Origin: an uncultured Candidatus Rokubacteria bacterium
GTDB taxonomy: Bacteria > Methylomirabilota > Methylomirabilia > Rokubacteriales > CSP1-6
Reading direction: 5' to 3'
Assembly (NCBI GenBank): GCA_963747235.1
Contig: CAVVEU010000020.1
Coordinates: forward strand, 48,632-112,631
Length of the DNA: 64,000 nucleotides
Part shown: piece after piece, positions 24,790 to 39,986 of the stretch
How positions within the stretch are numbered: the stretch's first letter is position 1
Layout of the letters: every line of letters starts with the position of its first letter
The notes under the pieces: generated by a model
Databases searched by the model: none
Told to the model about the DNA's origin: nothing
What the model saw: the letters and a program-made list of their open reading frames with translations, nothing else
Made by a program: the position numbers and the translations under genes

Positions 24790-25647
24790 TTATCGCTCGC
24801 CCCACTTGAGCTTCGTGCGGAGCACCGAGAAGAAGTTCTTCTGGGGTACGCGGAGGAGCCGGGTCCGGGCGGTGGCCCGGCGCACCTCGACGATGTCGTG
24901 CGCCTTGAGCGCGAAGCCGACCTGGCCGTCCAGGGTCAGCATGACGTCCTGGTCGGTGAGCAGGGTGATCGAGATGCGCTGCGTGGCGGGCAGCACGATC
25001 GGCCGGTTGGTCAGGGTGTGCGAGCAGATCGGGGTGAGCACCACCGCGTCCATGGTCGGGAACACGATGGGGCCGCCCGCCGACAGGCAGTAGGCGGTGG
25101 AGCCGGTCGGGGTGGAGAGGATGAGCCCGTCCGCGCGGTAGCCGGTGGCGAAGACCCCGTCCACCGCCACCTCGAGCCGGATGATGCGGCTCATGGCCGA
25201 CTTGGTGATGACCACGTCGTTGAGGGCGGCGTACTCGCCGAGCCGCTCGCCCTGCCGGAACACGCGCGCCTCGAGCAGCATGCGCTCCTCGATGACCAGC
25301 TCGCCGCGCAGGTAGGACTCGAGCGCCGGGAACAGCTCGTCCACCGTGAGCGCGGTCAGGAAGCCGAGGCCGCCCAGGTTGACGCCCAGGATCGGCACGC
25401 CGAGGTCGCCCACCAGGCGGGCCATGCTGAGCAGGGTCCCGTCGCCGCCCAGGACGAGCAGGAGATCGGACTGGGCCGGCAGCTCCGGCCGTCCCGCCAT
25501 CGGTACCGTCGCCTCGGGGCAGAGCGCCGCCGTTTCCTTCTCGAGCACCGGCTGGATCCCGCGGTCCGCGCACCACTTGAGGAGCTGCGGCACCACCGTG
25601 CGGGCTTCCTCCCGGTCGGTCTTGGCGACGATACCCAGCCGCTTCAC
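24790..25647 (-). CDS. nadK: NAD(+) kinase
   Basis: 285 aa. GGDGT motif and NE/D…TPTGSTAYS-like motif (STPTGSTAYCLSAGGP). Confidence 0.9.
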   Translation of the reverse strand: MKRLGIVAKTDREEARTVVPQLLKWCADRGIQPVLEKETAALCPEATVPMAGRPELPAQSDLLLVLGGDGTLLSMARLVGDLGVPILGVNLGGLGFLTALTVDELFPALESYLRGELVIEERMLLEARVFRQGERLGEYAALNDVVITKSAMSRIIRLEVAVDGVFATGYRADGLILSTPTGSTAYCLSAGGPIVFPTMDAVVLTPICSHTLTNRPIVLPATQRISITLLTDQDVMLTLDGQVGFALKAHDIVEVRRATARTRLLRVPQKNFFSVLRTKLKWGER

Positions 25648-26558
25648 GGCACCGGCACCTCCTCCGCGGTGGTCTGGGTGATCAGCGTGTCCAGCTCGGA
25701 GAGGGTGCGGCCGGTCTTGGTCAGGAGGAGGAAGAACTCGCGGTTGCCCTTCGGGCCCTTGAGCGGTGACGCGGTGACGCCGCGCACGTGCCAGCCGTGC
25801 AGCACCGCGAAGCGCGCCACCCGGGCGACCACCGCCCGGTGATGCGAGCTGTCCCGGACCACGCCGCCCTTGCCCACCTGCCCCTTGCCGACCTCGAACT
25901 GCGGTTTCACCAGCACGACCGCCTCGCCCTTCGAGGTGAGCACGTTGAACACCGACGGGAGCACCTTCTCGAGCGAGATGAACGAGATATCCACGGTGGC
26001 CAGATCGGGCGACTCGGGAAAGGAGTCGATCGGCAGGTTGCGCGCGTTGGTCTTCTCCATCACCACCACCCGCCCGTCGGCGCGCAGCTTCGCGTCGAGC
26101 TGGCCCTGCCCGACGTCCACCGCGTAGACCTTCACCGCGCCCTGCTCCAGCAGGCAGTGGGTGAAGCCGCCGGTGGAGGCGCCCACGTCGATGGCCACGC
26201 GCCCGCGCGGCTCGATCGTGAAGGTGGCGAGCGCGTGCGCCAGCTTGTCGCCGCCGCGGCTCACGAAGCGCGGGCGCGCCGCCAGCTCGATGCGCGCGCC
26301 GGGCGCGACGAGCGCGCCGGCCTTGTCCACCCGCTGCCCGTCCACCATCACGTCGCCGGCCAGGATCACCCGCGCCGCCTTCTCGCGTGATTCGAGGAGC
26401 CCGCGCTCCACCAGCGCGATGTCGAGGCGGACTTTTGTCTTCGCGCGAGCTTCGGCGGCTCGTTCGGGCACGGCCGCCGTCTTTCCACGGACACTGGGCG
26501 CAGTCTTCCGTGGCGGGGCGGCCTTCGACAGGCCACGCTTCTTTGGGGACCTCTTCAC
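25644..26558 (-). CDS. tlyA: TlyA-family rRNA 2'-O-methyltransferase (S4 domain + FtsJ-like MTase) with Lys/Arg-rich N-terminal extension
   Basis: …VRLDIALVERGLLESREKAARVILAGDVMVDG… (S4) and …AIDVGASTGGFT… (SAM-binding). GTG start with SD AAAGGAG. Confidence 0.8.
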   Translation of the reverse strand: MKRSPKKRGLSKAAPPRKTAPSVRGKTAAVPERAAEARAKTKVRLDIALVERGLLESREKAARVILAGDVMVDGQRVDKAGALVAPGARIELAARPRFVSRGGDKLAHALATFTIEPRGRVAIDVGASTGGFTHCLLEQGAVKVYAVDVGQGQLDAKLRADGRVVVMEKTNARNLPIDSFPESPDLATVDISFISLEKVLPSVFNVLTSKGEAVVLVKPQFEVGKGQVGKGGVVRDSSHHRAVVARVARFAVLHGWHVRGVTASPLKGPKGNREFFLLLTKTGRTLSELDTLITQTTAEEVPVP

Positions 26559-26751
26559 GCCAGCTCCTTTCTTGAGCCGCCCGCGCCTCCGGCCAGGAGA
26601 TGGCAGGGCGGACGATCGCAGAGAAAGACGGTGGACCGCTGCTGGTGAGGGAACGGCTCGACCGCGTTCATGCGGGCTCCTAAGCCCAAGAGACCGTGCC
26701 AGAAATCACAGCGGTCACAATTATATAGCCGAACCCCCTCCGGGAACGAAT

Positions 26752-27447
26752 TCAGCGGACACTGGTGCCGGCCCGGGGTCGCAGCACGAAGAGCAGCCCC
26801 ATGCCGGCCAGGAAGCCTCCGATGTGGGCAAAGAAGGCCACCCCGCCGCTGGCCCCGAAGCTGCCGAGCCCGTTGAGCACCTGGACCACGATCCAGAAGC
26901 CCAGCACGATCACGGCGGGGATCTTCACCAGGCGGAAGAAGAAGCCCAGGATGATCAGCGTGGTGACGTGGGCGTGCGGGAAGAGCACCAGGTAGGCGCC
27001 CAGGACCCCGGAGACCGCGCCGCTCGCGCCCACCATGGGCACCGGGGAGCCGGGGCCGATGGCGGTCTGGGCCAGCGCGGCCGCCACGCCCGAGGCCAGG
27101 TAGAAGATCAGGTAGCGGCCGTGGCCCAGGACGTCCTCGACGTTGTTCCCGAAGATCCACAGGTAGAGCATGTTGCCCGCGATGTGGAAGAGCCCGCCGT
27201 GCATGAACATCGAGCTGAAGATGGTCAGGATCGGCGCCGGCAGGTCCAGGGCCCCCCGGCAGGCGCCGGTGAGCCGGCAGGGCACCAGCCCGAACTCCTC
27301 GATGAAGGCCTGCCCGGCCCGCGCGCCCTGCCCGTCGCCCACCTCCAGCGAGAACTGGTAGAGGAAGACCAGCGCGTTGGCCAGGATCAGGCCGATGGTG
27401 ACGATCGGGGTGCTGTGGGCGGGGTTGTCGTCCTTGAGGGGGAACAC
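26752..27447 (-). CDS. Rhomboid-family intramembrane serine protease
   Basis: 231 aa, six TM helices. Catalytic GASGAVSG and HIGGFLAG motifs. Confidence 0.85.
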   Translation of the reverse strand: MFPLKDDNPAHSTPIVTIGLILANALVFLYQFSLEVGDGQGARAGQAFIEEFGLVPCRLTGACRGALDLPAPILTIFSSMFMHGGLFHIAGNMLYLWIFGNNVEDVLGHGRYLIFYLASGVAAALAQTAIGPGSPVPMVGASGAVSGVLGAYLVLFPHAHVTTLIILGFFFRLVKIPAVIVLGFWIVVQVLNGLGSFGASGGVAFFAHIGGFLAGMGLLFVLRPRAGTSVR

Positions 27448-27453
27448 GGACCG

Positions 27454-28755
27454 CTATTGCGCCGCGGGACCCAGCGTCACCACGGTGGGCGCGCTCAGAT
27501 AGGCTCGCGCGACGCGCTGCACGTCCTCGGCCGTCACCACCTCCACCGCGCGCACGTACCGCTCGGCGAACCCCGGCCCGACTCCGAGCGCTTCGAAGAA
27601 GGCGTCATACCAGGACAGCCGCGCGTTGGTGCGCCGATCCAGCGCGAACTGGCCGAGCAGGTAGCCCTTGGCGCGCGTGAGCTCGGCCGGGCTCAGGGGC
27701 TCGCGGCGGATGCGCTCGAGCTCCCCCAGCATCGCGGTCTCCGCCCGGGCCTGGTTGGCCGGCGCGGTGCCGAGCTGCGTGAAGAGCACGCCGGGCCCCT
27801 CGCGCGACGGATAGGCGCCGCCCGTCGAGTAGGCGAGGCCCTGCTTGTCGCGCACCTCGGTGAAGAGCCGTCCGGCCATGCCGCCGCCCAGCGCGGTGGC
27901 CAGCACCTTCACCGCCGCGTAGTCGGCGTGTGACGTCGGCGGGGCGAGGAAGCCGGCCAGGACCTGGGCTTGCGCAGACGCCCGCACGATCACGGTGCGG
28001 TCCGCGCGCGCGGCGGCCGCGGGCAGTGTGGGCTCGGTCTCCGCGGGGCCGGTGGGGGCGCCGGCGAAGAGGCGGCTCACCTCCGCCATCACGAGGCGCG
28101 TGTCCACGTCGCCGCTCACGGCCAGGATCATGCGCGGGGCCCGGTAGAAACGCTGGTGATGCGCGACCAGGCGGGCGCGATCGATGCGCTCCAGCGCGGC
28201 GGGCCGGCCCAGGATCGGGCGGCCGTACGGATGATCCCCGTACACGCGGCTCATCAGCGTATCCATGGCCAGCGAGAACGGCTGGTCCTGCCGGCTGCGG
28301 AGCGCGGTCAGGGTGGCGCGCCGCTCGCCGTCGATCTCGGCCACGGGCAGCGTGGGCCGCAGCGCGACGTCGGCGATCAGCTCGAGCATCGTTCGCCAGT
28401 TTCGCGCGAGCGCGGTGGCGCGGATCTCCGAGTAGTCCAGGTCGGCCGACGAGCCGATGCCCCCGCCCAGGTTCTCCGCGGTCTCGGCGACCTCGAGCGC
28501 CGAGCGCTTCTCGGTCCCCTTGAGCAGCACCTGCTGGAGCAGATGGCTGATGCCCGCGTCGTCCTCGGTCTCCCAGCGCGAGCCCATCCGCACGAAGAGC
28601 GAGGCCGCCGTCACCGCGGTCGCGGTGTTCTCCCGCACCAGCACGGTGAGGCCGCCGGGGAGCTGCTGGCGAACCGGCTGCGCCGTCGCCTGCCCCGCCG
28701 CGGCCCACCCGAGGGCCACGACCAGCGCGAGAGCCGCCGCGCGCCGCGGGCTCAC
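27454..28755 (-). CDS. M16-family peptidase, non-catalytic partner subunit (no HxxEH)
   Basis: GTG start (VSPRRAAALALVVALGWAAAGQATAQ signal peptide) overlapping the upstream M16 gene's stop (GTGA). Peptidase_M16 and M16_C domains present, zinc motif absent. Confidence 0.75.
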   Translation of the reverse strand: MSPRRAAALALVVALGWAAAGQATAQPVRQQLPGGLTVLVRENTATAVTAASLFVRMGSRWETEDDAGISHLLQQVLLKGTEKRSALEVAETAENLGGGIGSSADLDYSEIRATALARNWRTMLELIADVALRPTLPVAEIDGERRATLTALRSRQDQPFSLAMDTLMSRVYGDHPYGRPILGRPAALERIDRARLVAHHQRFYRAPRMILAVSGDVDTRLVMAEVSRLFAGAPTGPAETEPTLPAAAARADRTVIVRASAQAQVLAGFLAPPTSHADYAAVKVLATALGGGMAGRLFTEVRDKQGLAYSTGGAYPSREGPGVLFTQLGTAPANQARAETAMLGELERIRREPLSPAELTRAKGYLLGQFALDRRTNARLSWYDAFFEALGVGPGFAERYVRAVEVVTAEDVQRVARAYLSAPTVVTLGPAAQ

Positions 28756-30101
28756 TGCGCGCGACCCCGCGGGACGAAGGCCAGCCGCGCGTAGGCGTCG
28801 GTGAGGTAGCGGCGCGCCGCCTCCTGCACCTGCGCGCCCGTCACCGCGCGCACGCGGTCCAGGTAGGCGCGCTCGGCCTCCAGGCTCCAGGTGGTCTCGG
28901 CGCGGCCGTACGCCAGCGCCAGGCCTTCCACCGTCTCGCGCGAGAACTCGCGCTGGGCCTCGGAGGCGGTGATCGAGCGGGCCAGCTCCTCCGGCGTCAC
29001 GCCGTCCGCCTGGATGCGGCGGATCTCGGCCAGGATGCCGCGCTCCACCGCCTCCTGGTCCGCGCTCTCGAGCTGCGCGGTCACGCCCACCGCGCCCGCG
29101 CCCTGGAGCGCGCCGTACCAGCCGCTGATCCCGGACACCAGCCGCGCCTTCTCGCGCAGGGCCTGGTTGAGCCGCGAGCTGCGCGAGCCGCCCAGGATGT
29201 GGCTCAGCACGTCCACCGCCGGCATGTCGGGATGACCGAGCGGCGGCGCCAGCCACGCGAGGCCGAGCTGCGTCTGGCGCTCCGGACGCTCCACCGATCG
29301 GGTGCGCACGCCGTCCAGCGGCGCCGGCGCGGGCACCGCCGGCCGGGTGTAGCCGGCCCGGGGAATCGCGCCGAACGCGGCGATCGCGGCGGCGCGGACC
29401 TCCGCCGGGTTGACGGGACCGACCACGACCAGGGCCATGTTCTCCGGGACGTAGTGGCGCTTGTAGTACCCGCGCAGGGTCTCCTGGGTGGCGCCCCGCA
29501 GGTCTCCCGCGTCACCCAGCACGGAGCGCCCGTAGGGGTGGCCCTGGTAGAGCACGCTGTAGAGCTGGCGGCCCAGGGACGACCGCGGATTGTCCTCGTT
29601 CAGCCGCACTTCCTCGAAGACCACGTCGCGCTCGCGCGTGAGCTCGGTCGGATCGAACACGGAGTTGAGCACCATGTCCGCGATCAGGGAGATTCCGGGC
29701 ACCGTGCGCGTCGCGGGCAGCAGCAGGTAGTAGAAGGTGTAGTCGTTCGATGTGCCCGCGTTGGTGCGCCCGCCCACCGCCTCGACGTCGCTCTCGACGA
29801 ATCCGCGCGGCCGCGTCGCGGTTCCCTTGAAGAGCATGTGCTCCGCGAAGTGCGAGAAGCCGCGCTCGCCGATCGCCTCGTCGCGCCCGCCCACGCCGGT
29901 CCAGAGATGAATCGCGACCGTGGCCGCGGCGCGGTGCTCCTGGATGATGAGCCGCATGCCGTTGGGGAGCACCTCGCGGATGGGCGCGGGCAATCCACGC
30001 GCCCCCGGCGCGGGCGGTGCCGTCACGCATCCACCGAGCGTATATAGGAGGAAGGCGATCGCGCAGACGCGTACGGCGCATCTGCCGATGGAGGGGGTCA
30101 T
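28752..30101 (-). CDS. M16-family zinc peptidase (HxxEH), probable lipoprotein
   Basis: MTPSIGRCAVRVCAIAFLLYTLGGC lipobox-like signal. Zinc motif GFSHFAEHMLFKGT. Confidence 0.8.
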   Translation of the reverse strand: MTPSIGRCAVRVCAIAFLLYTLGGCVTAPPAPGARGLPAPIREVLPNGMRLIIQEHRAAATVAIHLWTGVGGRDEAIGERGFSHFAEHMLFKGTATRPRGFVESDVEAVGGRTNAGTSNDYTFYYLLLPATRTVPGISLIADMVLNSVFDPTELTRERDVVFEEVRLNEDNPRSSLGRQLYSVLYQGHPYGRSVLGDAGDLRGATQETLRGYYKRHYVPENMALVVVGPVNPAEVRAAAIAAFGAIPRAGYTRPAVPAPAPLDGVRTRSVERPERQTQLGLAWLAPPLGHPDMPAVDVLSHILGGSRSSRLNQALREKARLVSGISGWYGALQGAGAVGVTAQLESADQEAVERGILAEIRRIQADGVTPEELARSITASEAQREFSRETVEGLALAYGRAETTWSLEAERAYLDRVRAVTGAQVQEAARRYLTDAYARLAFVPRGRAQ

Positions 30102-30251
30102 TGCGGCTACACGGTACCAGAGCCCAAGACAGTTTGCCGGGTCATCTGTCGGGGCCATGCCGGGCAGAACGCCCTCGTGGCCCCGGTGGCCGATCGGAGG
30201 CCGAAGCCTTAAGGTATTGAAACTATGGACTAGTTGGACTCTGAAACCCTC

Positions 30252-30267
30252 TGGCATTGCCGGTGCA
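30252..30267 (+). promoter_or_regulatory. Candidate sigma-54 (-24/-12) promoter upstream of the repeat-protein gene
   Basis: cTGGCAT-tgccg-GTGCa matches TGGCAC-N5-TTGC (GG and GC elements with correct spacing). It is ~105 nt upstream of the ATG. No enhancer-binding protein gene is in the window. Confidence 0.35.
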
Positions 30268-30373
30268 TCCTATGGCTGCGAGTTGGGGCCCCAGGGGGCC
30301 GGGAGAAGAAACCCAAGTGGGACGCGCAGTGAGCAAGAAGTCAGAAACGCAGTCAGAAAGGATGGAAACGACG

Positions 30374-31557
30374 ATGAGAAAGTTCCTTGCAGCGACGATG
30401 AGTGTAGTGACGGTCTTCTCCCTCTCGGCCACGGTCGGGATGGCGCAGACCACGTCCTGCCCCGAGGTGGCGTCGGCGAAGGCGATGCTGACGCAGACCG
30501 CGAAGAGCCAGGACGTCCAGGCGCCCCGCTCGCTGGCGGGTGCCCGGTCGCAGGACGTGCAGGCCCCGCGTAGCCAGGACGTCCAGGCGCCCCGCTCGCT
30601 GGCGGGTGCCCGGTCGCAGGACGTGCAGGCGCCGCGTAGCCAGGACGTGCAGGCCCCGCGCGGTCAGGATGTGCAGGCTCCTCGCGGTCAGAACATCCAG
30701 GCTCCTCGCGCCCAGGACGTGCAGGCGCCGCGTGGCCAGGATGTGCAGGCTCCTCGCGGTCAGGACATCCAGGCTCCGCGTAGCCAGGATGTGCAGGCTC
30801 CCCGCGTCAGGACTAGCGGGTGCCCGCGTCGCAGGACGTGCAGGCTCCTCGCGCCCAGGACGTGCAGGCGCCGCGTGGCGGTCGGCAGGACGTGCAGGCT
30901 CCTCGCGGCCAGGACATCCAGGCGCCGCGTGGTCAGGATGTGCAGGCTCCTCGTGGTCAGAACATCCAGGCTCCTCGCGCGCAGGACGTCCAGGCGCCGC
31001 GTGGCCAGGACATTCAGGCCCCGCGTGGTCAGGACGTGCAGGCTCCTCGTAGCCAGGACGTGCAGGCTCCTCGCGGTCAGAACATCCAGGCTCCTCGCGC
31101 CCAGGACGTGCAGGCGCCGCGTGGTCAGGATGTGCAGGCTCCTCGCGGTCAGGACATCCAGGCGCCGCGTGGCCAGGATGTGCAGGCTCCTCGCGGTCAG
31201 AACATCCAGGCTCCTCGCGCCCAGGACGTCCAGGCTCCTCGCGGCCAGGACGTGCAGGCGCCGCGTGGCCAGGACGTGCAGGCTCCTCGCGGTCAGAACA
31301 TCCAGGCTCCTCGCGCCCAGGACGTGCAGGCGCCGCGTGGTCAGGATGTGCAGGCTCCTCGTGGTCAGAACATCCAGGCTCCTCGCGGCCCAGGACGTGT
31401 CCAGGCCCCGCGTGCCCAGGATGTGCAGGCTCCCCGCTCTGCCGAGTTCAAGAAGGCTTCTGGTCTCGTGACCGAGGCCGAGGCGGCGTGCAAGGCCGGC
31501 AACTCGACGCTGGCGGCTGACAAGGCCAAGGCGGCGATGGAGATGCTGAAGAAGTAG
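30374..31557 (+). CDS. Secreted tandem-repeat protein: signal peptide, ~39 octapeptide repeats (consensus QDVQAPRG, variants QDIQAPRG/QNIQAPRA/QDVQAPRS), short C-terminal helical tail; reading frame switches inside the array at ~30805–30830
   Basis: SD AGGA, then ATG at 30374 (MRKFLAATMSVVTVFSLSATVGMAQ signal peptide). The repeats are in frame b up to 30810. After an irregular unit (gtcaggacTAGcggg…, in-frame TAG at 30814) they continue in frame c from the GTG at 30820 to the stop at 31557. The continuation of frame b is Arg/Cys/Leu-rich nonsense. Confidence 0.7.
30509..31450 (+). repeat. Tandem array of ~39 x 24-bp units (CAGGACGTGCAGGCBCCBCGYGGY) encoding the octapeptide repeats
   Basis: Direct reading of the sequence. 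Units are near-identical with wobble-position variation. Two early units carry an SLAGAR insertion. Confidence 0.9.
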
Positions 31558-31578
31558 CAGTTCGACGACGCAACCAAC

Positions 31579-31614
31579 GGCCCCGGGGCGAATCCCCCGG
31601 GGCCGTTTCTTTTT
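31579..31614 (+). terminator. Intrinsic terminator (bidirectional) between the repeat-protein gene and phnE
   Basis: GGCCCCGGGG-cgaatc-CCCCGGGGCC followed by GTTTCTTTTT. Confidence 0.85.
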
Positions 31615-31627
31615 GTGGCGATCGCGG

Positions 31628-32380: not shown

Positions 32381-33119
<739 letters not shown>

Positions 33120-35097: not shown

Positions 35098-35173
35098 TGG
35101 TGGAGGGTAAGGGAGTCGAACCCTCGACCTCGGCGTTGCGAACGCCGCGCTCTCCCAACTGAGCTAACCCCCC
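35098..35173 (-). tRNA. tRNA-Ala (anticodon CGC)
   Basis: RC reads GGGGGGTTAGCTCAGTTGGGAGAGCGCGGCGTTCGCAACGCCGAGGTCGAGGGTTCGACTCCCTTACCCTCCACCA. G3:U70 Ala identity pair present, anticodon loop TTCGCAA, T-loop TTCGACT, encoded CCA. Confidence 0.9.
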
Positions 35174-36068: not shown

Positions 36069-37400
36069 CTAGGGGCGCTGCGCCGACCTGGTGACCTTGA
36101 GCGTGAGGCCATCGATGGCCGCGACCTTGACGGACTCGCCCGCCGCCACGGTGCCGTCCTGGCTCAGCGCCCGCCACAGCTCGCCGTCGATCATCACCTG
36201 CCCCTCGGGCGCCAGCGCCGACCGCGCCACCCCGAGCCGCCCCACCATGGCGGATTCGCCGGTCACCGAGGGCCGGTAGAGCGCGCGGATGCCCATGGAC
36301 ACCGCGAAGAAGACCAGCGCCGCGGTCGTGCCCACCGTGGGAATCACCACGTACCAGGACAGCCGGATCCCGGTCGTCTCGGGCGAGTCGTAGAGCATGA
36401 GGGAGCCGAGCAGCATGGCGACCACGCCGCCGATCGCGAGGACGCCGTGGCTCACCACCTTGACCTCGGCGATGAGCAGCACCACGCCGAAGAGAAGCAG
36501 CAGGAGGCCGGCCCAGTTCACCGGCAGGCTCTGGAAGGCGTAGAAGGCCAGGATCAGGCAGATGCCGCCGATGACGCCGGGCAGGATCGCGCCCGGGTTG
36601 GACAGCTCGAAGAAGATGCCCGAGCATGCCCGCCATCATCAGCAGGTAGGCGATGTTGGGGTCCGAGATCAGGGCGAGGAACCGGTCGCGGAAGCGCACC
36701 TCGATGACCTTGACCGGCGCGTCCTTGGTGGCGAGCGTGACCTGGCCGCGCGTGGTCTTGACGGCGCGGCCGTCGATCTGGGTCAGGAGATCCGGCACGC
36801 TCTCGGCCACCAGGTCCACGATCTTGAGCTTGACCGCCTCGCGCTCGGTGGCCGAGACCGACGAGCGCACCGCCTTCTCGGCCCACTCCGCGTTGCGCCC
36901 CCGCTCGGTGGCGATGGTGCGCGCGAAGGCGGCCGCGTCGTTCTCGACCTTCTTGATCATCTCCTTGTCCCCGCCCCCGCCCACCGCCACCGGGTGCGCG
37001 GCCCCGATGTTCGTGGCGGGCGCCATCACGGCCACGTGCGCGGCCATCGTGATGAAGACTCCGGCGGAGGCGGCGCGCGCGCCACCCGGCGCGACGTAGA
37101 CGATGACCGGGATCGGCGAGCCCAGGATGCTCTGCACCATCGAGCGCATGGAGCGCTCGAGCCCGCCCGGCGTGTTGAGCTGCACGATCGAGGGCCTGGG
37201 AGCCTTCGGCCTGCGCCCGGTCGATCGCGCTCGCCGAGCAGGCGGACCGTGACCGGGGTGATCGCGGAATCCAGCTCGATCAGCGACACGGATTGAGCCG
37301 CGGAGGCCGGGCCGGCGAGGGAGAGCAGCGCGGCGGAGGCCAGCAGGATGGCGACGGCGACGAGGAGAGGCCGGTTGATGGCCGATCTCACGCGCGTCAT
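36069..37400 (-). CDS. nfeD: NfeD-family membrane-bound ClpP-class serine protease (long form); three frame changes in this sequence
   Basis: Segments found in different frames: signal peptide + …[20 protein letters not shown] (frame R, from 37400); …AIDRAQAEG… (frame S); …[67 protein letters not shown]…[10 protein letters not shown] (frame P); [15 protein letters not shown]…TM…OB-fold C-terminus (frame Q, to 36069). Breaks at ~37225, ~37185 and ~36605. Confidence 0.75.
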
Positions 37401-37422
37401 CTTAGCACGCGCGGGACGCGCC

Positions 37423-38376
37423 CTAGCGGGCGAGGGCGACCACCGAGAGCAGCTCGAAGAGCAGGTTGGCGGCCAGCACGCCGGTGATGGCGCCGGGCCC
37501 GTCGTAGGGCGGCGAGACCTCGACGATGTCGCCCCCGGCCAGCTCGATCCCGCGCAGCCCGCGCACGAGCCCGAGCGCCTCGTAGGAGGTGAGCCCGCCC
37601 GCCTCCGGCGTCCCCGTCCCCGGGGCGTAGGCCGGATCGCACGCGTCCACGTCGAAGGAGACGTAGACGGGCCCGCCGCTCTCGAGGCGCCGCAGCCGCT
37701 CGACCGCGGCGGCGACGCCGCGCTCCTTGATCTCCTCGATGCGGATGACCTCGAAGGCGTGCTCGCGGTGGAAGTCGAAGTCCTCCGGGCCGTAGAGGGG
37801 CCCGCGGATGCCCACCTGGATGGAGCGCGCGCCGTCGATCAGCCCCTCCTCGATCGCCCGGCGGAAGGTGCTGCCGTGGTAGTAGGGCAGGCCGAAGTAG
37901 CGGTCCCAGGTGTCCGGGTGCGCGTCGAAGTGCACGAGCCCCAGGCGCCCGTGGCGCTTCGCGAGCGCGCGCAGCACCGCCAGGGTCACGGTGTGATCGC
38001 CGCCCACGCAGAGCGGGACCGCGCGGGCCTCCACCACCGGCGCCAGGGTCTGCTCGATGGCCGCGAAGGTCGCCTCGATCGACACCGGCACCGCGTCCAC
38101 GTCGCCGCAGTCGGCGACCCGCAGCCGCTCGAAGGGGTGCACGCGCAGGGCCGAGTTCCACGGCCGGATCAGCGAGGACTGCTCGCGCACGTGACGCGGG
38201 CCCATGCGCGCGCCCGAGCGGTAGGAGCAGCCGCCGTCGAAGGGAATGCCGCAGAGGGCCACGTCGAGCCCCGCGGGCGACTCCACGTGCGGCAGCCGCA
38301 TGAACGTGGCCGGCTGCGCGAAGCGAGGCGACGCGAAGCCGTCGCGCTGCTTCGGATGCTCGCGGGACGGGTCCAT
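37423..38376 (-). CDS. speB: Arginase-family ureohydrolase, agmatinase-like
   Basis: 317 aa with Mn-binding motifs (…GGDHTVT…, …DAHPD…, …SFDVDACDP…). Confidence 0.75.
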   Translation of the reverse strand: MDPSREHPKQRDGFASPRFAQPATFMRLPHVESPAGLDVALCGIPFDGGCSYRSGARMGPRHVREQSSLIRPWNSALRVHPFERLRVADCGDVDAVPVSIEATFAAIEQTLAPVVEARAVPLCVGGDHTVTLAVLRALAKRHGRLGLVHFDAHPDTWDRYFGLPYYHGSTFRRAIEEGLIDGARSIQVGIRGPLYGPEDFDFHREHAFEVIRIEEIKERGVAAAVERLRRLESGGPVYVSFDVDACDPAYAPGTGTPEAGGLTSYEALGLVRGLRGIELAGGDIVEVSPPYDGPGAITGVLAANLLFELLSVVALAR

Positions 38377-38397
38377 GGCAGCGGCGGTGCCGGCCGG

Positions 38398-39615
38398 CTA
38401 GAGCGTGCCGCGCAGGGTTGCCACCGCCGCGGCCAGGCGCTCGACCTCGCCCGCCGTGGAGTGCACCGAGAAGCTCGCGCGCAGCGTGCCCGCGATGCCG
38501 AGGCGGCGCATCAGCGGCTGGGCGCAGTGAAAGCCCGCGCGCACCGCGATCCCCTGCTGGTCGAGCAGCGCGGCGCCGTCGTGGGGGTGCAGCCCCTCCA
38601 CGTTGAAGGCCACCACCGCGCCCTTCATCTCGGGATTGCGCGGGCCGTAGAGGGTGACGCCCTCGATGCGCCCCAGCGCGTCCAGGCACTGCGCGACGAG
38701 CGCCTGCTCGTGGGCCAGCACCTCGCTCATGCCGAGCTTGCCGAGGTATTCGCACGCCGCGTGCAGCCCCACCGCCTCCGCGATCGGGGGCGTGCCCGGC
38801 TCGAAGCGCCACGGCAGGTCGTTCCACTGCGCGCGGTCGATCCAGACCTCCTTGATCATCTCGCCGCCGCCCCAGGCGGGCTCGAGCTTGTCCAGCACCT
38901 CGCGGCGCCCGTAGAGCACGCCGATGCCGGTGGGCCCGAGCATCTTGTGGCCGGAGAAGGCGTAGAAGTCGGCGCCGATCGCGTTCAGGTCGAGCGGGAG
39001 ATGCGGCACCGCCTGGGCCCCGTCGAGCAGCACGAGCGCGCCGGCCCGGTGCGCGCGCTCCACGATCTGGGCCACCGGGTTGATCGTCCCGAGCACGTTG
39101 GAGACGTGGGCGACCGCCACCACGCGTGTGCGCGGGGAGAGCAGGCGGTCGAAGGCCTCGAGGTCGAGATACCCCTCCCCGACCACCGGGATCGCGCGCA
39201 GCACCGCGCCGCGGTCGCGACAGGCCATCTGCCACGGGATCAGGTTCGAGTGGTGCTCGAGCTCGCTGACGATGATCTCGTCGCCCGCCTTGAGCGTCCG
39301 TCCCACCGCCTGCGCCACCAGGTTGATCCCCTCGGTGGTGCCGCGCGTGAAGATGATCTCCTCGCGGCTGCGGGCGCCCACGAAGGCGCGCACCGCGTCC
39401 CGGGCCGCCTCGTACCGCTCGGTGGCTTCCTCGCCCAGGGTGTGGATGGAGCGGTGCACGTTGGCGTGGCTCGTCTGGTAGTAGTTCGAGATGGCCTCGA
39501 TCACCGCGAGCGGCTTCTGGCTGGAGGCGGCCGAGTCGAGATAGACGAGCGGATGCCCGTTCACGATGCGGGAGAGGATCGGAAAGTCGCGGCGGGTCTT
39601 CTCGCCCAGGTTCAT
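38398..39615 (-). CDS. sufS: Cysteine desulfurase, SufS type (class-V aminotransferase, group II)
   Basis: MNLGEKTRRDFPIL… PLP lysine SGHK, catalytic Cys in GFHCAQPLM, HHSNL motif. Confidence 0.85.
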   Translation of the reverse strand: MNLGEKTRRDFPILSRIVNGHPLVYLDSAASSQKPLAVIEAISNYYQTSHANVHRSIHTLGEEATERYEAARDAVRAFVGARSREEIIFTRGTTEGINLVAQAVGRTLKAGDEIIVSELEHHSNLIPWQMACRDRGAVLRAIPVVGEGYLDLEAFDRLLSPRTRVVAVAHVSNVLGTINPVAQIVERAHRAGALVLLDGAQAVPHLPLDLNAIGADFYAFSGHKMLGPTGIGVLYGRREVLDKLEPAWGGGEMIKEVWIDRAQWNDLPWRFEPGTPPIAEAVGLHAACEYLGKLGMSEVLAHEQALVAQCLDALGRIEGVTLYGPRNPEMKGAVVAFNVEGLHPHDGAALLDQQGIAVRAGFHCAQPLMRRLGIAGTLRASFSVHSTAGEVERLAAAVATLRGTL

Positions 39616-39986
39616 CGCGTCACCTCCTGACCGCTGAGGGCCTCCTGCAGGACGCTCAGCGGGAGCGTCACGCACTTCATCCGTGACGGCCGGATATCGG
39701 AATCGAGCCGCTCCAGCAGGCTCGACGGGGTCTGGGTCTGCGCGAAGCCCACCGGCTGGCCGAGCGCGGCCTCGAGCAGCAGGTCGGCGGAGGCCGCGCA
39801 GATCGCGCAGCAGTCGCCGGTCCAGCGGGCCTCGGCCAGGCGCCCGTCGGCGAGCCGGCCCTGGATGCGCACGCGGTCGCCGCAGAGCGGGTTCACGTCC
39901 TCGTGGGCCACGTCCGGGCGCTCGATCGCGCCGCGGAAGAGCGGCCGGCGGAAGCGCTCCCGGATCACGTCGCTGTAGAGCGCCAT
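39612..39986 (-). CDS. sufU: SufU/IscU-like sulfur acceptor / Fe-S scaffold
   Basis: 125 aa with NPLCGD…GDCCAICAASADLL motifs. Directly downstream of sufS with overlapping stop/start. Confidence 0.75.
   Translation of the reverse strand: MALYSDVIRERFRRPLFRGAIERPDVAHEDVNPLCGDRVRIQGRLADGRLAEARWTGDCCAICAASADLLLEAALGQPVGFAQTQTPSSLLERLDSDIRPSRMKCVTLPLSVLQEALSGQEVTR

What the first reader, a model, noticed from the sequence alone, without database searches (positions are those of the whole stretch)
30374..31557. Secreted protein made almost entirely of ~39 tandem octapeptide (QDVQAPRG) repeats, with a sigma-54-like promoter and a scrambled unit in mid-array
About 940 bp of the gene is a near-perfect 24-bp tandem array. 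It encodes Q-D-V/I-Q-A-P-R-G/S/A repeats between a Sec signal peptide and a 45-residue helical tail (…AEAACKAGNSTLAADKAKAAMEMLKK) that echoes a short motif before the array (AKAMLTQTAK). I do not recognise this repeat as any described family; it resembles an intrinsically disordered periplasmic or surface spacer or binding protein. The array changes reading frame at ~30805–30830, where one unit is rearranged (gtcaggacTAGcgggtgcccgcgtcg replaces the usual tcgctggcgggtgcccggtcg). This could be an assembly collapse in repeats or a genuine slipped-strand/phase-variable (contingency) locus. A -24/-12 sigma-54-type element sits ~105 nt upstream. Only the nucleotide-level variation between units argues the array is real rather than a low-complexity artifact.
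Basis: seen in the sequence. Interest (0 to 1): 0.75.

Follow-up and report, generated by a model that had tools for sequence, protein, structure and literature searches.

The report
Sigma-54-controlled secreted repeat-loop protein, Rokubacteria
This is a real gene for a secreted protein, a small three-helix domain carrying a long floppy loop of about 39 near-identical 8-residue repeats; it belongs to a large unnamed family confined to the soil phylum Rokubacteria, each member has its own conserved sigma-54 on-switch, and the mid-array frame change is most likely a sequencing error, not a genetic switch.

Summary
A 24-bp tandem array (30506-31437) lies in a gene starting at ATG 30374 and stopping at 31557. 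The gene has a signal peptide, a helical tail, a strong terminator and a -24/-12 element at 30252-30267.

The gene belongs to a large, unnamed family with no Pfam or NCBIfam model, found almost only in Rokubacteria/Methylomirabilota. Its plan is: signal peptide, helix CPxEVxxAKxML, a loop of 1 to about 39 xQ(D/E)(V/I)Q(A/S)PR units punctuated by SLAGAR, then a helical hairpin EAEAACKxG. Two Cys are invariant.

The sigma-54 claim is strongly supported. 66 of 68 family genes carry the element, with two phased upstream boxes (GGCA-N3-TGCC type) and an AT-rich island. All 86 distinct enhancer copies recovered from metagenomes precede a family gene.

The "scrambled unit" is the array's third SLAGAR-type unit (SGLAGAR), flanked by two extra G bases (30806, 30828). 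Seven orthologous loci are intact. Split arrays are enriched in Nanopore assemblies. The window also carries a unique +1 insertion in a conserved NfeD gene. The frame change is therefore probably an assembly error. Phase variation is not supported, because units are 24 bp and natural alleles differ by whole units.

Function is inferred only: an inducible, disordered periplasmic protein, probably linked to envelope stress.

The parts
30128..30138 (+). Upstream activator box 1, GACAGTTTGCC (family consensus GGCAGAATGCC, an inverted repeat GGCA-N3-TGCC)
   Evidence: Conserved in 49 of 63 family promoters, 32-33 bp upstream of box 2. The box pair is unique in the window.
30162..30173 (+). Upstream activator box 2, GGGCAGAACGCC
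   Evidence: Lies 89 bp upstream of the -24 T. Across the family the distance falls into two classes, 75-78 or 86-89 bp, about one helical turn apart.
30210..30221 (+). AT-rich, IHF-like site TAAGGTATTGAA between enhancer and core promoter
   Evidence: An AT-rich island (0.53-0.60 AT against about 0.30 background) sits at -45..-11 relative to the -24 T, averaged over the 63 promoters. A strict YAA-N4-TTGAW match occurs at a fixed 40-42 nt offset in 15 promoters.
30252..30267 (+). Sigma-54-type -24/-12 core promoter TGGCATTGCCGGTGCA (GG-N10-GC)
   Evidence: Only exact match in the window. An equivalent element is present upstream of 66 of 68 family genes, against 3.6% of random 320-nt windows.
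30279..30373 (+). Predicted 5' untranslated region, purine-rich, with Shine-Dalgarno GAAAGGA at about 30356-30362
   Evidence: Inferred from the promoter position. Family UTRs are 60-150 nt and carry a strong AAGGA-type Shine-Dalgarno. The fold is no more stable than shuffled sequence (z = -0.95).
30374..30445 (+). Signal peptide MRKFLAATMSVVTVFSLSATVGMA (predicted cleavage after GMA)
   Evidence: Read from the sequence. The pattern of a basic start, a hydrophobic core and AxA before Q/A is conserved in the family. There is no lipobox.
30446..30505 (+). Helix 1 of the mature protein, QTTSCPEVASAKAMLTQTAK, with the invariant Cys (30458-30460)
   Evidence: The Cys is invariant in 48 and in 69 aligned sequences. 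AlphaFold2 predicts a helix here in two relatives.
30506..31437 (+). Tandem array of 24-bp units: 34 canonical xQ(D/N)(V/I)QAPR octapeptides, 2 aberrant units and 3 S(G)LAGAR inserts
   Evidence: Tandem Repeats Finder and the unit map. The equivalent region is predicted disordered in a relative (pLDDT below 50).
30806..30806 (+). Extra G (first +1 shift, frame A to frame B)
   Evidence: Absent from the corresponding SLAGAR units of orthologues L022, L036 and L030, and from the in-frame SGHAGAR unit of L029.
30807..30827 (+). SGLAGAR unit (tca gga cta gcg ggt gcc cgc), readable only in frame B; the apparent TAG lies inside c-TA-G (Leu)
   Evidence: Homologous to L029's in-frame tca gga cat gcg ggc gcc cgt (SGHAGAR) and to the third SLAGAR unit of L022, L036 and L030.
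30828..30828 (+). Extra G (second +1 shift, frame B to frame C)
   Evidence: Removing both G bases gives one 393-residue ORF collinear with the orthologues.
30880..30885 (+). 6-nt in-frame insertion GGTCGG giving the unit GGRQDVQAPR
   Evidence: Absent from the orthologue L022, which has ...PRGQDVQ....
31387..31403 (+). Local +1 then +2 frame excursion giving GPGRVQAPR in place of AQDVQAPR
   Evidence: The orthologues read ...QNIQAPRAQDVQAPR... here.
31438..31557 (+). C-terminal helical hairpin SAEFKKASGLVTEAEAACKAGNSTLAADKAKAAMEMLKK with the second invariant Cys (31489-31491), plus the stop codon
   Evidence: Most conserved part of the family, always ending about 25 residues after the AExxC motif. 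AlphaFold2 gives pLDDT 77-91 in this region.
31576..31617 (+). Intrinsic terminator (13-bp stem, 11 G-C pairs, T-run)
   Evidence: Equivalent terminators follow the gene in distant relatives L001 and L008, so the gene is transcribed on its own.

Best explanation
Shown:
- The locus is one gene of a large, unnamed family found almost only in Rokubacteria/Methylomirabilota.
- The gene is a self-contained transcription unit. It has two phased upstream activator boxes, an AT-rich bend or IHF-like site, a sigma-54 -24/-12 core, a strong Shine-Dalgarno, the coding sequence and a strong terminator.

Predicted:
- The product is exported by a Sec signal peptide.
- Helix 1 (CPEVASAKAML...) and the C-terminal hairpin (...EAEAACKAG...) form a small three-helix bundle.

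Inferred:
- The two invariant Cys sit at the N-cap of helix 1 and the C-cap of helix 2. These are neighbours in an antiparallel bundle, so they probably form a periplasmic disulfide.
- The repeats form a closed, intrinsically disordered, charge-balanced loop (one D and one R per 8 residues, with Pro and Gly) that displays up to about 39 copies of an invariant Q-A/S-P-R motif.

Also shown: loop length changes by whole units between near-identical alleles, an in-frame length polymorphism.

The frame change (about 0.8 likely an artefact): two single extra G bases (30806, 30828) and two further local indel excursions are most likely long-read consensus errors. The real gene would encode one protein of about 393 residues.

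Function (inference, about 0.3): a tightly off/on periplasmic protein produced in bulk when a dedicated enhancer-binding protein is activated. It would act as a disordered shield, holdase or multivalent binder during envelope stress, functionally like sigma-54-dependent ZraP or the periplasmic disordered protein Asr. This fits a neighbourhood rich in envelope proteases and quality-control genes: an M16 pair, a rhomboid, an HtrA-like protease and NfeD/stomatin.
For: Family and architecture:
- About 100 homologues share the same plan.
- A profile search gave 933 clusters of 50% identity at E <= 1e-3.
- 104 confirmed loci in species-representative genomes; of the 80 kept, nearly all are from Rokubacteria/Methylomirabilota.
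- Minimal members of 95-120 residues have only 1-3 units.

Structure:
- Both Cys are invariant.
- AlphaFold2 gives helices 31-48, 183-198 and 202-216 with disordered repeats in P0023, and three helices at pLDDT 77-86 in the 95-residue member P0207.

Selection:
- 22 nucleotide unit variants encode 5 peptides, and QAPR varies only synonymously.
- Alleles within 90%-identity clusters mostly differ by multiples of 8 residues.

Regulation:
- 66 of 68 genes carry the -24/-12 element, against a 3.6% background.
- Box-to-box spacing is 32-33 bp; box-to-core spacing is 75-78 or 86-89 bp.
- An AT-rich island lies between enhancer and core.
- The enhancer-plus-core composite occurs 48 times in 913 kb, always upstream of a family gene.
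- In a metagenome scan seeded only with the two boxes, all 86 distinct sites precede a family gene.
- Terminators follow the gene.

Frameshift as artefact:
- Seven orthologous loci with 84-91% identical flanking DNA have intact ORFs of 208-366 residues.
- The SGLAGAR unit exists in frame as SGHAGAR in L029.
- Split arrays occur in 7 of 16 Nanopore Microflora Danica genomes against 3 of 54 other assemblies, Fisher p = 7.6e-4 (Nanopore origin from PMC12313526).
- The window alone has a +1 C insertion at about 36619 in a conserved NfeD gene, against 24 of 24 relatives.

Neighbourhood:
- The M16 pair lies divergently upstream in 60 of 85 loci compared, and an HtrA-like protease lies downstream in 25 of 85.
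- The same repeat is fused to a peptidoglycan-binding domain in another Rokubacteria protein.
Against: - There is no experimental or expression evidence of any kind.
- The function is by analogy only. The family has no LTXXQ motif and no Pfam or NCBIfam hit to CpxP, Spy or ZraP.
- Strong conservation of the exact Q-A/S-P-R motif is unusual for a pure entropic shield. It points to a specific partner or processing site that I could not identify.
- No rpoN or enhancer-binding protein gene lies in the window or in about 0.9 Mb of related flanks.
- Synteny with proteases may be simple vertical inheritance within one phylum. Terminators separate the gene from the HtrA-like protease.
- The flanking 5.6 kb of coding DNA shows no frameshifting indels against L026. 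Array-specific real mutations therefore cannot be excluded without reads.
Confidence: 0.5

Rival explanations
1. The frameshift is real: this allele is a recently inactivated pseudogene, or it produces a truncated 365-residue product with an Arg-rich out-of-frame tail. On this reading, tandem arrays in this family decay often.
For: - Frame A stays open to 31471.
- Four or five indel anomalies cluster in the array, while 5.6 kb of flanking coding DNA is clean against L026.
- Three short-read assemblies also have split arrays.
- Genomes hold 1-3 paralogues, so losing one copy may be tolerated.
Against: - Downstream of the shift, about 25 units, the conserved tail and the terminator are all perfectly preserved in frame C, with only synonymous variation in QAPR.
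- All seven orthologues are intact.
- Split arrays are enriched 8-fold in Nanopore assemblies.
- The window has a second unique 1-nt insertion in a conserved NfeD gene.
Confidence: 0.17
2. The gene is a polyprotein precursor. After export, periplasmic proteases (the adjacent M16 pair or the HtrA-like enzyme) cut the loop after each Arg and release dozens of identical octapeptides (for example GQDVQAPR) plus SLAGAR hexapeptides. These would serve as signals or effectors, and copy number would set the dose.
For: - Every unit ends in an invariant Arg, and no unit in the window's array contains an internal Lys or Arg.
- The peptide sequence is conserved far more than a spacer would need.
- Copy number ranges from 1 to about 39 and is polymorphic.
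- Proteases are conserved neighbours.
- There is tight on/off control.
Against: - The most conserved part of the family is the helical bundle with its two Cys, which a simple precursor would not need.
- Members with a single unit exist.
- The neighbouring serine protease has the HtrA-type IQTDA...G-x-SGG motif. From general knowledge, that type prefers aliphatic residues at the cleavage site, not Arg.
- Terminators uncouple the gene from that protease.
- The same repeat is fused to a peptidoglycan-binding domain, where release makes less sense.
Confidence: 0.1
3. It is a structural envelope tether or ruler. The bundle docks on one envelope component, and the variable-length loop binds peptidoglycan or a polysaccharide multivalently, setting spacing or adhesion and not acting in stress protection.
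For: - A closely similar repeat (9-residue units, NQDVQAPRG) is attached to a PG_binding_1 domain in another Rokubacteria protein.
- Multivalent conserved motifs suit binding to a polymer.
- The Pro-containing extended repeats recall the TonB and TolA spacers (general knowledge).
Against: - A strictly activator-dependent sigma-54 promoter suits a conditional product, not a housekeeping structural one.
- Both ends of the loop emerge from the same end of the bundle, so it cannot span a distance as a linear spacer would (inference).
- Loop length varies 40-fold within the family.
Confidence: 0.15
4. It is a phase-variable contingency locus. Slipped-strand mispairing in the array switches the gene on and off, and the observed frame change is one such off state.
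For: - The array is highly repetitive, and frame-shifted gene calls recur in databases (P0060, P0072, P0088, P0093).
Against: - The unit is 24 bp, so gain or loss of units keeps the frame.
- Alleles in 90%-identity clusters differ by multiples of 8 residues.
- The shift here comes from two separate 1-nt insertions outside any homopolymer or short-unit tract.
- Split arrays track sequencing technology.
Confidence: 0.03
5. The octapeptides form a regular triple-stranded beta-helix fibre like the C-terminal needle of phage T4 gp5, not a disordered loop.
For: - Pfam Gp5_trimer_C scores 38.6 bits against a cut-off of 30.9 on the reconstructed protein, and matches 6 of 69 relatives.
- Both have an 8-residue period.
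Against: - Each unit has only one aliphatic residue and one Ala, plus a Pro.
- Units of 6, 9 and 10 residues and SLAGAR inserts break the register in relatives.
- 63 of 69 members do not match.
- There is no gp5, VgrG or lysozyme domain.
- AlphaFold2 gives pLDDT below 50, although a monomer prediction cannot see a trimeric helix.
Confidence: 0.03

Closest known systems
ZraP (with CpxP and Spy), the periplasmic stress chaperone of E. coli and Salmonella, transcribed from a sigma-54 promoter activated by ZraR (PMC4987338)
   Same: - Small, exported, mainly helical protein.
- Single-gene unit with a sigma-54 promoter that depends on a dedicated enhancer-binding protein.
- Sits among envelope quality-control genes.
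   Different: - No LTXXQ motifs and no Pfam or NCBIfam match.
- Has a disordered loop of up to about 330 residues made of repeats, and two invariant Cys.
- No adjacent sensor or regulator genes.
- No His-rich or other metal-binding motif.
Asr and bacterial hydrophilin or LEA-like proteins (stress-induced, repetitive, intrinsically disordered; Asr is periplasmic). This comparison rests on general knowledge.
   Same: - Secreted, repetitive, hydrophilic, predicted disordered and conditionally expressed.
   Different: - Different composition: a neutral Q/A/P/R/D polyampholyte, whereas Asr is Lys/His-rich.
- An exact conserved Q-A/S-P-R motif.
- A folded helical clasp closes the loop.
- Sigma-54 control.
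Tandem-repeat surface proteins with in-frame copy-number variation, and true contingency loci with repeat units whose length is not a multiple of 3 nt (general knowledge)
   Same: - Copy number differs between near-identical strains.
- The arrays break short-read assemblies: 13 of 84 loci end inside the array.
   Different: - The unit length is a multiple of 3, so variation changes loop length and not expression.
- The protein is predicted periplasmic and has no anchor.
T4 gp5 C-terminal octapeptide beta-helix (Pfam PF22178)
   Same: - An 8-residue period, and a formal Pfam hit above the cut-off for the window protein.
   Different: - The hydrophobic pattern is absent, the register is irregular in relatives, there is no gp5 or VgrG context, and 63 of 69 relatives do not match.
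Multi-copy peptide precursors, such as yeast alpha-factor, or multi-core RiPP precursors such as thiovarsolin VarA (P0008 gave a weak NCBIfam hit of 19.3 bits against a cut-off of 35)
   Same: - Tandem identical short peptides, each ending in a basic residue, with variable copy number and proteases nearby.
   Different: - Sec-exported, with a conserved folded domain.
- No RiPP maturase genes.
- The hit is below the cut-off and driven by the repeats.

Membership tests
Unnamed Rokubacteria family (signal peptide, CPxEV helix, QAPR-repeat loop, EAEAACKxG hairpin) | Sec signal peptide followed within 2-5 residues by Cys-Pro-x-Glu-Val and an amphipathic helix | tested here: met
   Window residues 1-45 match the family pattern.
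Unnamed Rokubacteria family (signal peptide, CPxEV helix, QAPR-repeat loop, EAEAACKxG hairpin) | Loop of xQ(D/E)(V/I)Q(A/S)PR units opened and punctuated by (S/T)LAGAR | tested here: met
   34 canonical units and 3 S(G)LAGAR units, collinear with orthologues L022, L036 and L029.
Unnamed Rokubacteria family (signal peptide, CPxEV helix, QAPR-repeat loop, EAEAACKxG hairpin) | C-terminal KAxxLVxEAEAACKxG...KAxxAxxxLK hairpin ending about 25 residues after the AExxC motif, in the same reading frame as the N-terminus | tested here: inconclusive
   The tail is present and conserved. In the window as assembled it lies in a different frame (+2). It is in frame only after removing the G bases at 30806 and 30828.
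Unnamed Rokubacteria family (signal peptide, CPxEV helix, QAPR-repeat loop, EAEAACKxG hairpin) | Two invariant cysteines | tested here: met
   Cys29 (30458-30460) and the tail Cys (31489-31491) are invariant columns in alignments A1 and A2.
Sigma-54 (RpoN)-dependent promoter with enhancer | -24 GG and -12 GC exactly 10 nt apart, within TGGCAC-N5-TTGCW | tested here: met
   TGGCATTGCCGGTGCA at 30252-30267, scoring 9 of 11 consensus positions.
Sigma-54 (RpoN)-dependent promoter with enhancer | Element conserved at related genes beyond chance | tested here: met
   66 of 68 genes score >= 9 of 11 at 75-170 nt from the start codon, against 3.6% of 5000 random windows.
Sigma-54 (RpoN)-dependent promoter with enhancer | Upstream activator sites, helically phased, about 80-150 bp upstream | tested here: met
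   Two boxes 32-33 bp apart. Box 2 lies 75-78 or 86-89 bp from the core. The enhancer is exclusive to family genes: 48 of 48 and 86 of 86.
Sigma-54 (RpoN)-dependent promoter with enhancer | DNA-bending (IHF) site between enhancer and core | tested here: inconclusive
   The AT-rich island is clear in the average over the 63 promoters. Only 15-16 of 63 match a strict IHF-like pattern. IHF binding was not tested.
Sigma-54 (RpoN)-dependent promoter with enhancer | rpoN and a cognate enhancer-binding protein encoded in the genome; transcription start about 12 nt after the GC | not testable with these tools
   No RpoN-box or GAFTGA motif in the window or in about 0.9 Mb of related flanks. Whole genomes and transcript data were not available.
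CpxP/Spy/ZraP periplasmic chaperones | LTXXQ motifs and a Pfam match | tested here: not met
   No such hit for the window protein or for 69 relatives. MLTQTAK is not LTXXQ.
CpxP/Spy/ZraP periplasmic chaperones | Chaperone activity and feedback on a sensor kinase | not testable with these tools
   Needs biochemistry.
Phase-variable contingency locus (slipped-strand mispairing) | Repeat unit length not divisible by 3 (or located in the promoter), so that copy number switches expression | tested here: not met
   The unit is 24 bp. Alleles differ by multiples of 8 residues. The shift is caused by two isolated 1-nt insertions.
T4 gp5 C-terminal beta-helix (PF22178) | Pfam score above the gathering cut-off | tested here: inconclusive
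   38.6 against 30.9 bits for the reconstructed window protein, but only 6 of 69 relatives match at E <= 0.1.
T4 gp5 C-terminal beta-helix (PF22178) | Regular octapeptide register with alternating inward-facing hydrophobic residues, attached to a gp5 or VgrG body | tested here: not met
   One V/I and one A per unit plus a Pro. Relatives have 6-, 9- and 10-residue units and SLAGAR inserts. No other domain was found.
Bacterial lipoprotein | Lipobox L-(A/S)-(G/A)-C at the end of the signal peptide | tested here: not met
   The Cys is preceded by TTS in the window and by P, K, Q, N or D in relatives. An AxA cleavage site lies 2-5 residues upstream.

The most novel reading that the evidence does not exclude
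The gene encodes a sigma-54-gated secreted polyprotein. Its disulfide-clasped loop would be cut by the conserved neighbouring periplasmic proteases into dozens of identical octapeptides. This would be a bacterial tandem-copy peptide signal or effector system whose dose is set by a hypervariable copy number, specific to an uncultured soil phylum.
Probability: 0.1. Interest if true: 0.8.

Novelty: new variant of a known kind. Interest (0 to 1): 0.5.

Why it matters
- Rokubacteria are abundant soil bacteria with no cultured members, and almost no gene-level biology is known for them.
- This is a phylum-wide protein family with 933 clusters of 50% identity and 1-3 copies per genome. It has no name, no Pfam or NCBIfam model, and no literature in the library searched.
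- Its regulatory region is one of the cleanest computational examples of a complete sigma-54 enhancer: two phased activator boxes, a bend site and the -24/-12 core. In everything sampled here, that enhancer is dedicated to this one gene family.
- This makes several questions directly testable. Which enhancer-binding protein recognises GGCA-N3-TGCC? What signal turns it on? What does a disulfide-closed disordered loop of 8 to about 330 residues do in the periplasm?
- The tryptic peptide xQDVQAPR, repeated tens of times per molecule, would be an easy marker in soil metaproteomes.
- Methodological point: these arrays are a hotspot for Nanopore consensus indels and for short-read contig breaks. 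Frame-shifted calls in them should not be read as pseudogenes or phase variation.

Tried and rejected
- Pfam and NCBIfam scans of the window protein and of relatives gave only repeat-driven hits: Gp5_trimer_C, Peptidase_M23 with no aligned stretch, Cornifin, collagen-like adhesins and thiovarsolin below its cut-off.
- An exact look-up of the window's 245-residue ORF in public assemblies found nothing on record.
- The large proteins hit by the family profile (P0112, P0123, P0146 and others) appear to be unrelated repeat proteins and were not informative.
- An operon with the downstream HtrA-like protease was rejected because strong terminators intervene.
- Programmed frameshifting was rejected. 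Reading SGLAGAR needs two separate +1 events 21 nt apart, there is no slippery site, and the orthologues are simply in frame.
- 5' UTR structure: the fold is no better than shuffled sequence (z = -0.95). Rfam found only a tRNA in the window.
- A search for rpoN or an enhancer-binding protein gene (GAFTGA, RpoN box) in the window and in all loci found none.
- A literature search for the peptide motifs and for Rokubacteria with sigma-54 found nothing relevant.
- ORF clustering of neighbours was noisy, because high-GC DNA yields many spurious antisense ORFs. Only the M16 and HtrA-like clusters were used.
Full report
**1. The observation**

The region reads as the first-stage reader described. Tandem Repeats Finder reports a 24-bp array at 30617-31437 (33.9 copies; the 48-bp period scores 845), an overlapping 24-bp array at 30551-30879 and a 66-bp repeat at 30506-30661. 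Counted from the first unit, the array spans 30506-31437.

The gene starts at ATG 30374. Reading frame A gives MRKFLAATMSVVTVFSLSATVGMA|QTTSCPEVASAKAMLTQTAK, followed by SQDVQAPR, SLAGAR and more octapeptides. From about 30806 this frame turns into an Arg-rich nonsense product that stays open to 31471. The remaining repeats and the tail ...SAEFKKASGLVTEAEAACKAGNSTLAADKAKAAMEMLKK* lie in another frame, as ORF 30820-31557.

A terminator with a 13-bp stem follows at 31576-31607. TGGCATTGCCGGTGCA at 30252-30267 is the only exact match to TGGCAY-N6-TGCW in the window.

The array is not a low-complexity artefact. Its 34 canonical units comprise 22 different nucleotide sequences but only 5 peptides. 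The Gln-Ala-Pro-Arg codons vary only at synonymous sites.

**2. A large, unnamed family**

A search with the frame-corrected 393-residue protein returned about 100 proteins, all "hypothetical", with one architecture:
- a signal peptide;
- a Cys-Pro-x-Glu-Val helix;
- QAPR-(S/T)LAGAR followed by xQ(D/E)(V/I)Q(A/S)PR units;
- a tail KAxxLVxEAEAACKxGDMxxAxxKAxxAxxxLK that ends about 25 residues after the AExxC motif.

Both cysteines are invariant. A profile search of 1.84 billion representative proteins found 933 hits at E <= 1e-3 and 306 at E <= 1e-10. Most listed hits are 80-260 residues long. The smallest complete members (P0207 at 95 residues, P0196 at 102) carry a single unit. The repeats are therefore an expandable insert in the loop of a small protein, and the window's copy is at the long end.

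Pfam and NCBIfam have no model for the family; the only hits are driven by the repeats. No paper in the searched library contains the motifs.

In one genome per species of GTDB, 104 loci were confirmed. Of the 80 kept, nearly all are in Candidatus Rokubacteria/Methylomirabilota MAGs, with up to three copies per genome. The few loci in bins labelled as other phyla, including an archaeon, look like binning contamination.

**3. Structure**

The invariant Cys residues sit at the N-cap of helix 1 and the C-cap of helix 2. These are neighbours in an antiparallel bundle, so a periplasmic disulfide that closes the repeat region into a loop is a reasonable inference. It is not shown.

The unit is a neutral, well-mixed polyampholyte: one Asp and one Arg per 8 residues, two Gln, and usually one Pro and one Gly.

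**4. The sigma-54 promoter is real by comparative evidence**

- Of 68 family genes with enough upstream DNA, 66 have a GG-N10-GC element matching at least 9 of 11 consensus positions, 75-170 nt from the start codon. Only 3.6% of random 320-nt windows from the same loci do.
- Aligning the promoters on the -24 element reveals two boxes. Box 1 is GGCAGAATGCC, an inverted repeat GGCA-N3-TGCC. Box 2 is GGGCA(C/G)A(A/T)CGCC. They lie 32-33 bp apart.
- Box 2 sits either 75-78 or 86-89 bp upstream of the core. The two classes differ by about one helical turn.
- An AT-rich island (0.53-0.60 AT against about 0.30) lies between enhancer and core. It includes a YAA-N4-TTGAW IHF-like match at a fixed offset in 15 promoters.
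- The composite of boxes plus core occurs 48 times in 913 kb of Rokubacteria DNA, always in front of a family gene.
- In an independent metagenome scan seeded only with the two boxes, all 86 distinct sites with enough downstream sequence precede a family gene.

In the window the parts are at 30128-30138, 30162-30173, 30210-30221 and 30252-30267.

Strong terminators follow the gene in three distant lineages, so it is transcribed on its own. No rpoN or enhancer-binding protein gene lies in the DNA sampled. The regulator and its signal remain unknown.

**5. The frame change**

Seven loci share the window's flanks at 84-91% nucleotide identity: L022, L026, L029, L030, L034, L036 and L037. All have a single intact ORF of 208-366 residues.

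In L022, L030 and L036 the position of the window's "scrambled" unit is a third SLAGAR unit, ccccgc tcg cta gcg ggt gcc cgY tcg cag. L029 carries an in-frame variant, tca gga cat gcg ggc gcc cgt (SGHAGAR). The window has ccccgc-G-tca gga cta gcg ggt gcc cgc-G-tcg cag. This is the same kind of unit (SGLAGAR) bracketed by two extra G bases at 30806 and 30828. The apparent TAG lies inside c-TA-G (Leu). Removing the two G bases gives one 393-residue ORF collinear with the orthologues.

Two more anomalies are unique to the window. One is a 6-nt insertion at 30880-30885. The other is a +1 then +2 excursion at about 31387-31403.

Three observations favour assembly error.
- Among loci with a complete gene, arrays are split in 7 of 16 Microflora Danica MAGs, which are Nanopore assemblies (PMC12313526), against 3 of 54 other assemblies. 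Fisher's exact test gives p = 7.6e-4.
- Everything downstream of the shift is perfectly conserved in the other frame.
- The window alone carries an extra C at about 36619, in a highly conserved stretch of an NfeD-family gene. All 24 related loci lack it, and it splits that gene between two frames.

I put the artefact at about 0.8 and a real, very recent pseudogene at about 0.17.

Slipped-strand phase variation is not supported. The unit is 24 bp, and members of 90%-identity clusters mostly differ in length by multiples of 8 residues. That is in-frame length polymorphism. Two programmed +1 shifts 21 nt apart are also implausible.

**6. Context and function**

The gene is divergent from two M16 metallopeptidase genes (the first has an LGGC lipobox) and a rhomboid gene in 60 of the 85 loci compared (84 related loci plus the window). 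An HtrA-like serine protease with the motif IQTDA...GTSGGP, followed by a membrane segment and what looks by eye like a rhodanese-like region (not tested against a domain model), lies downstream in 25 of 85. In the window the downstream genes are instead a PhnE/PhnC-like ABC transporter, followed further on by Band7 and NfeD genes.

A closely similar repeat (9-residue units, NQDVQAPRG) is fused to a peptidoglycan-binding domain in another Rokubacteria protein.

Together with a strictly activator-dependent promoter and a strong Shine-Dalgarno, the most economical reading is an inducible periplasmic disordered protein that acts during envelope stress as a shield, holdase or multivalent binder. 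It would work like sigma-54-dependent ZraP (PMC4987338) without being a member of that family, since there is no LTXXQ motif and no profile match. I give this functional reading about 0.3.

The exact conservation of Q-A/S-P-R and the invariant Arg at each unit end keep a polyprotein or processing model alive at about 0.1. A tether role is at about 0.15. A gp5-like beta-helix is unlikely despite a formal Pfam hit.

**7. Verdict**

- The sigma-54 interpretation is strongly supported.
- The phase-variation and "scrambled unit" interpretations are not supported.
- The frame change is probably a consensus error.

What remains of interest is an uncharacterised, phylum-wide family with a hypervariable disordered loop and a dedicated enhancer. 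It is a new variant of known kinds (sigma-54-controlled periplasmic proteins; tandem-repeat disordered proteins). Interest is moderate and the questions it raises can be tested.

Noticed in passing
window 36610-36625 (minus-strand NfeD-family gene, about 36072-37391): The window has GATGCCCGAGCAT where all 24 related loci have one base fewer. This splits a conserved NfeD-like gene between two frames (87% and 94% identity to the intact L030 protein). It is probably an assembly indel, and it is evidence that the window contains such errors.
   Followed up: yes
window 32947-32965 (PhnC-like ABC ATPase, minus strand): Relative to all five orthologous loci whose alignment covers this stretch, the window has +2 and +1 insertions 13-17 nt apart. 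The net is in frame, giving a short local frame excursion like the one at about 31387-31403 in the array.
   Followed up: partly
window 24790-30257, minus strand: A conserved gene string runs RecN, NAD kinase, TlyA/FtsJ methyltransferase, rhomboid (RecN and rhomboid identified in related loci only, not checked in the window), then two M16 peptidases (the first with an LGGC lipobox). It ends about 25 nt from enhancer box 1 of the repeat gene. The activator bound there could also influence the divergent M16 operon.
   Followed up: partly
L089 3408-4103 (P0095 and its cluster; NCBI PYM44962.1, Candidatus Rokuibacteriota): A second Rokubacteria protein type joins a 9-residue version of the repeat (NQDVQAPRG) to a PG_binding_1 domain. 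Its alleles differ by 9 residues. A GG-N10-GC element (GGGCACGGCTGATGCA) lies 79 nt upstream.
   Followed up: partly
L049, L055, L056, L059, L062, L064, L069, L072, L083, L085-L088: Thirteen loci, none of them Microflora Danica (Nanopore) MAGs, end inside the repeat array. Intact arrays in Nanopore MAGs are longer than in other assemblies (241-471 against 146-353 residues). Short-read data probably break on, or under-represent, long arrays.
   Followed up: partly
L027, L030, L034, L037, L047, L060, L061, L072, L073, L077, L080, L081: Family loci sit in MAGs labelled Verrucomicrobiia, Limnocylindria, Deferrimicrobiaceae, Acidoferrum, Dormiibacterota, Binatia, Actinomycetes and even the archaeon Nitrosocosmicus. 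Several share 84-91% identical flanking DNA with Rokubacteria loci, so these look like binning contamination.
   Followed up: no
window 35098-35173, minus strand: tRNA-Ala (anticodon CGC) is the only RNA-family hit in the window.
   Followed up: no
window about 38225-38380 against L030 11701-12660: A protein ORF of L030 aligns to the window in two frames, switching near 38377. The window's 760-residue ORF (37348-39630) is continuous there, so the indel may be in L030. It could also reflect a difference in start sites.
   Followed up: no
window 30340-30373 and the orthologous 5' UTRs: The 5' UTR of the orthologue group contains repeated CAGTCAGAAA(C)G motifs just upstream of the Shine-Dalgarno. 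The UTR as a whole folds no better than shuffled sequence.
   Followed up: partly
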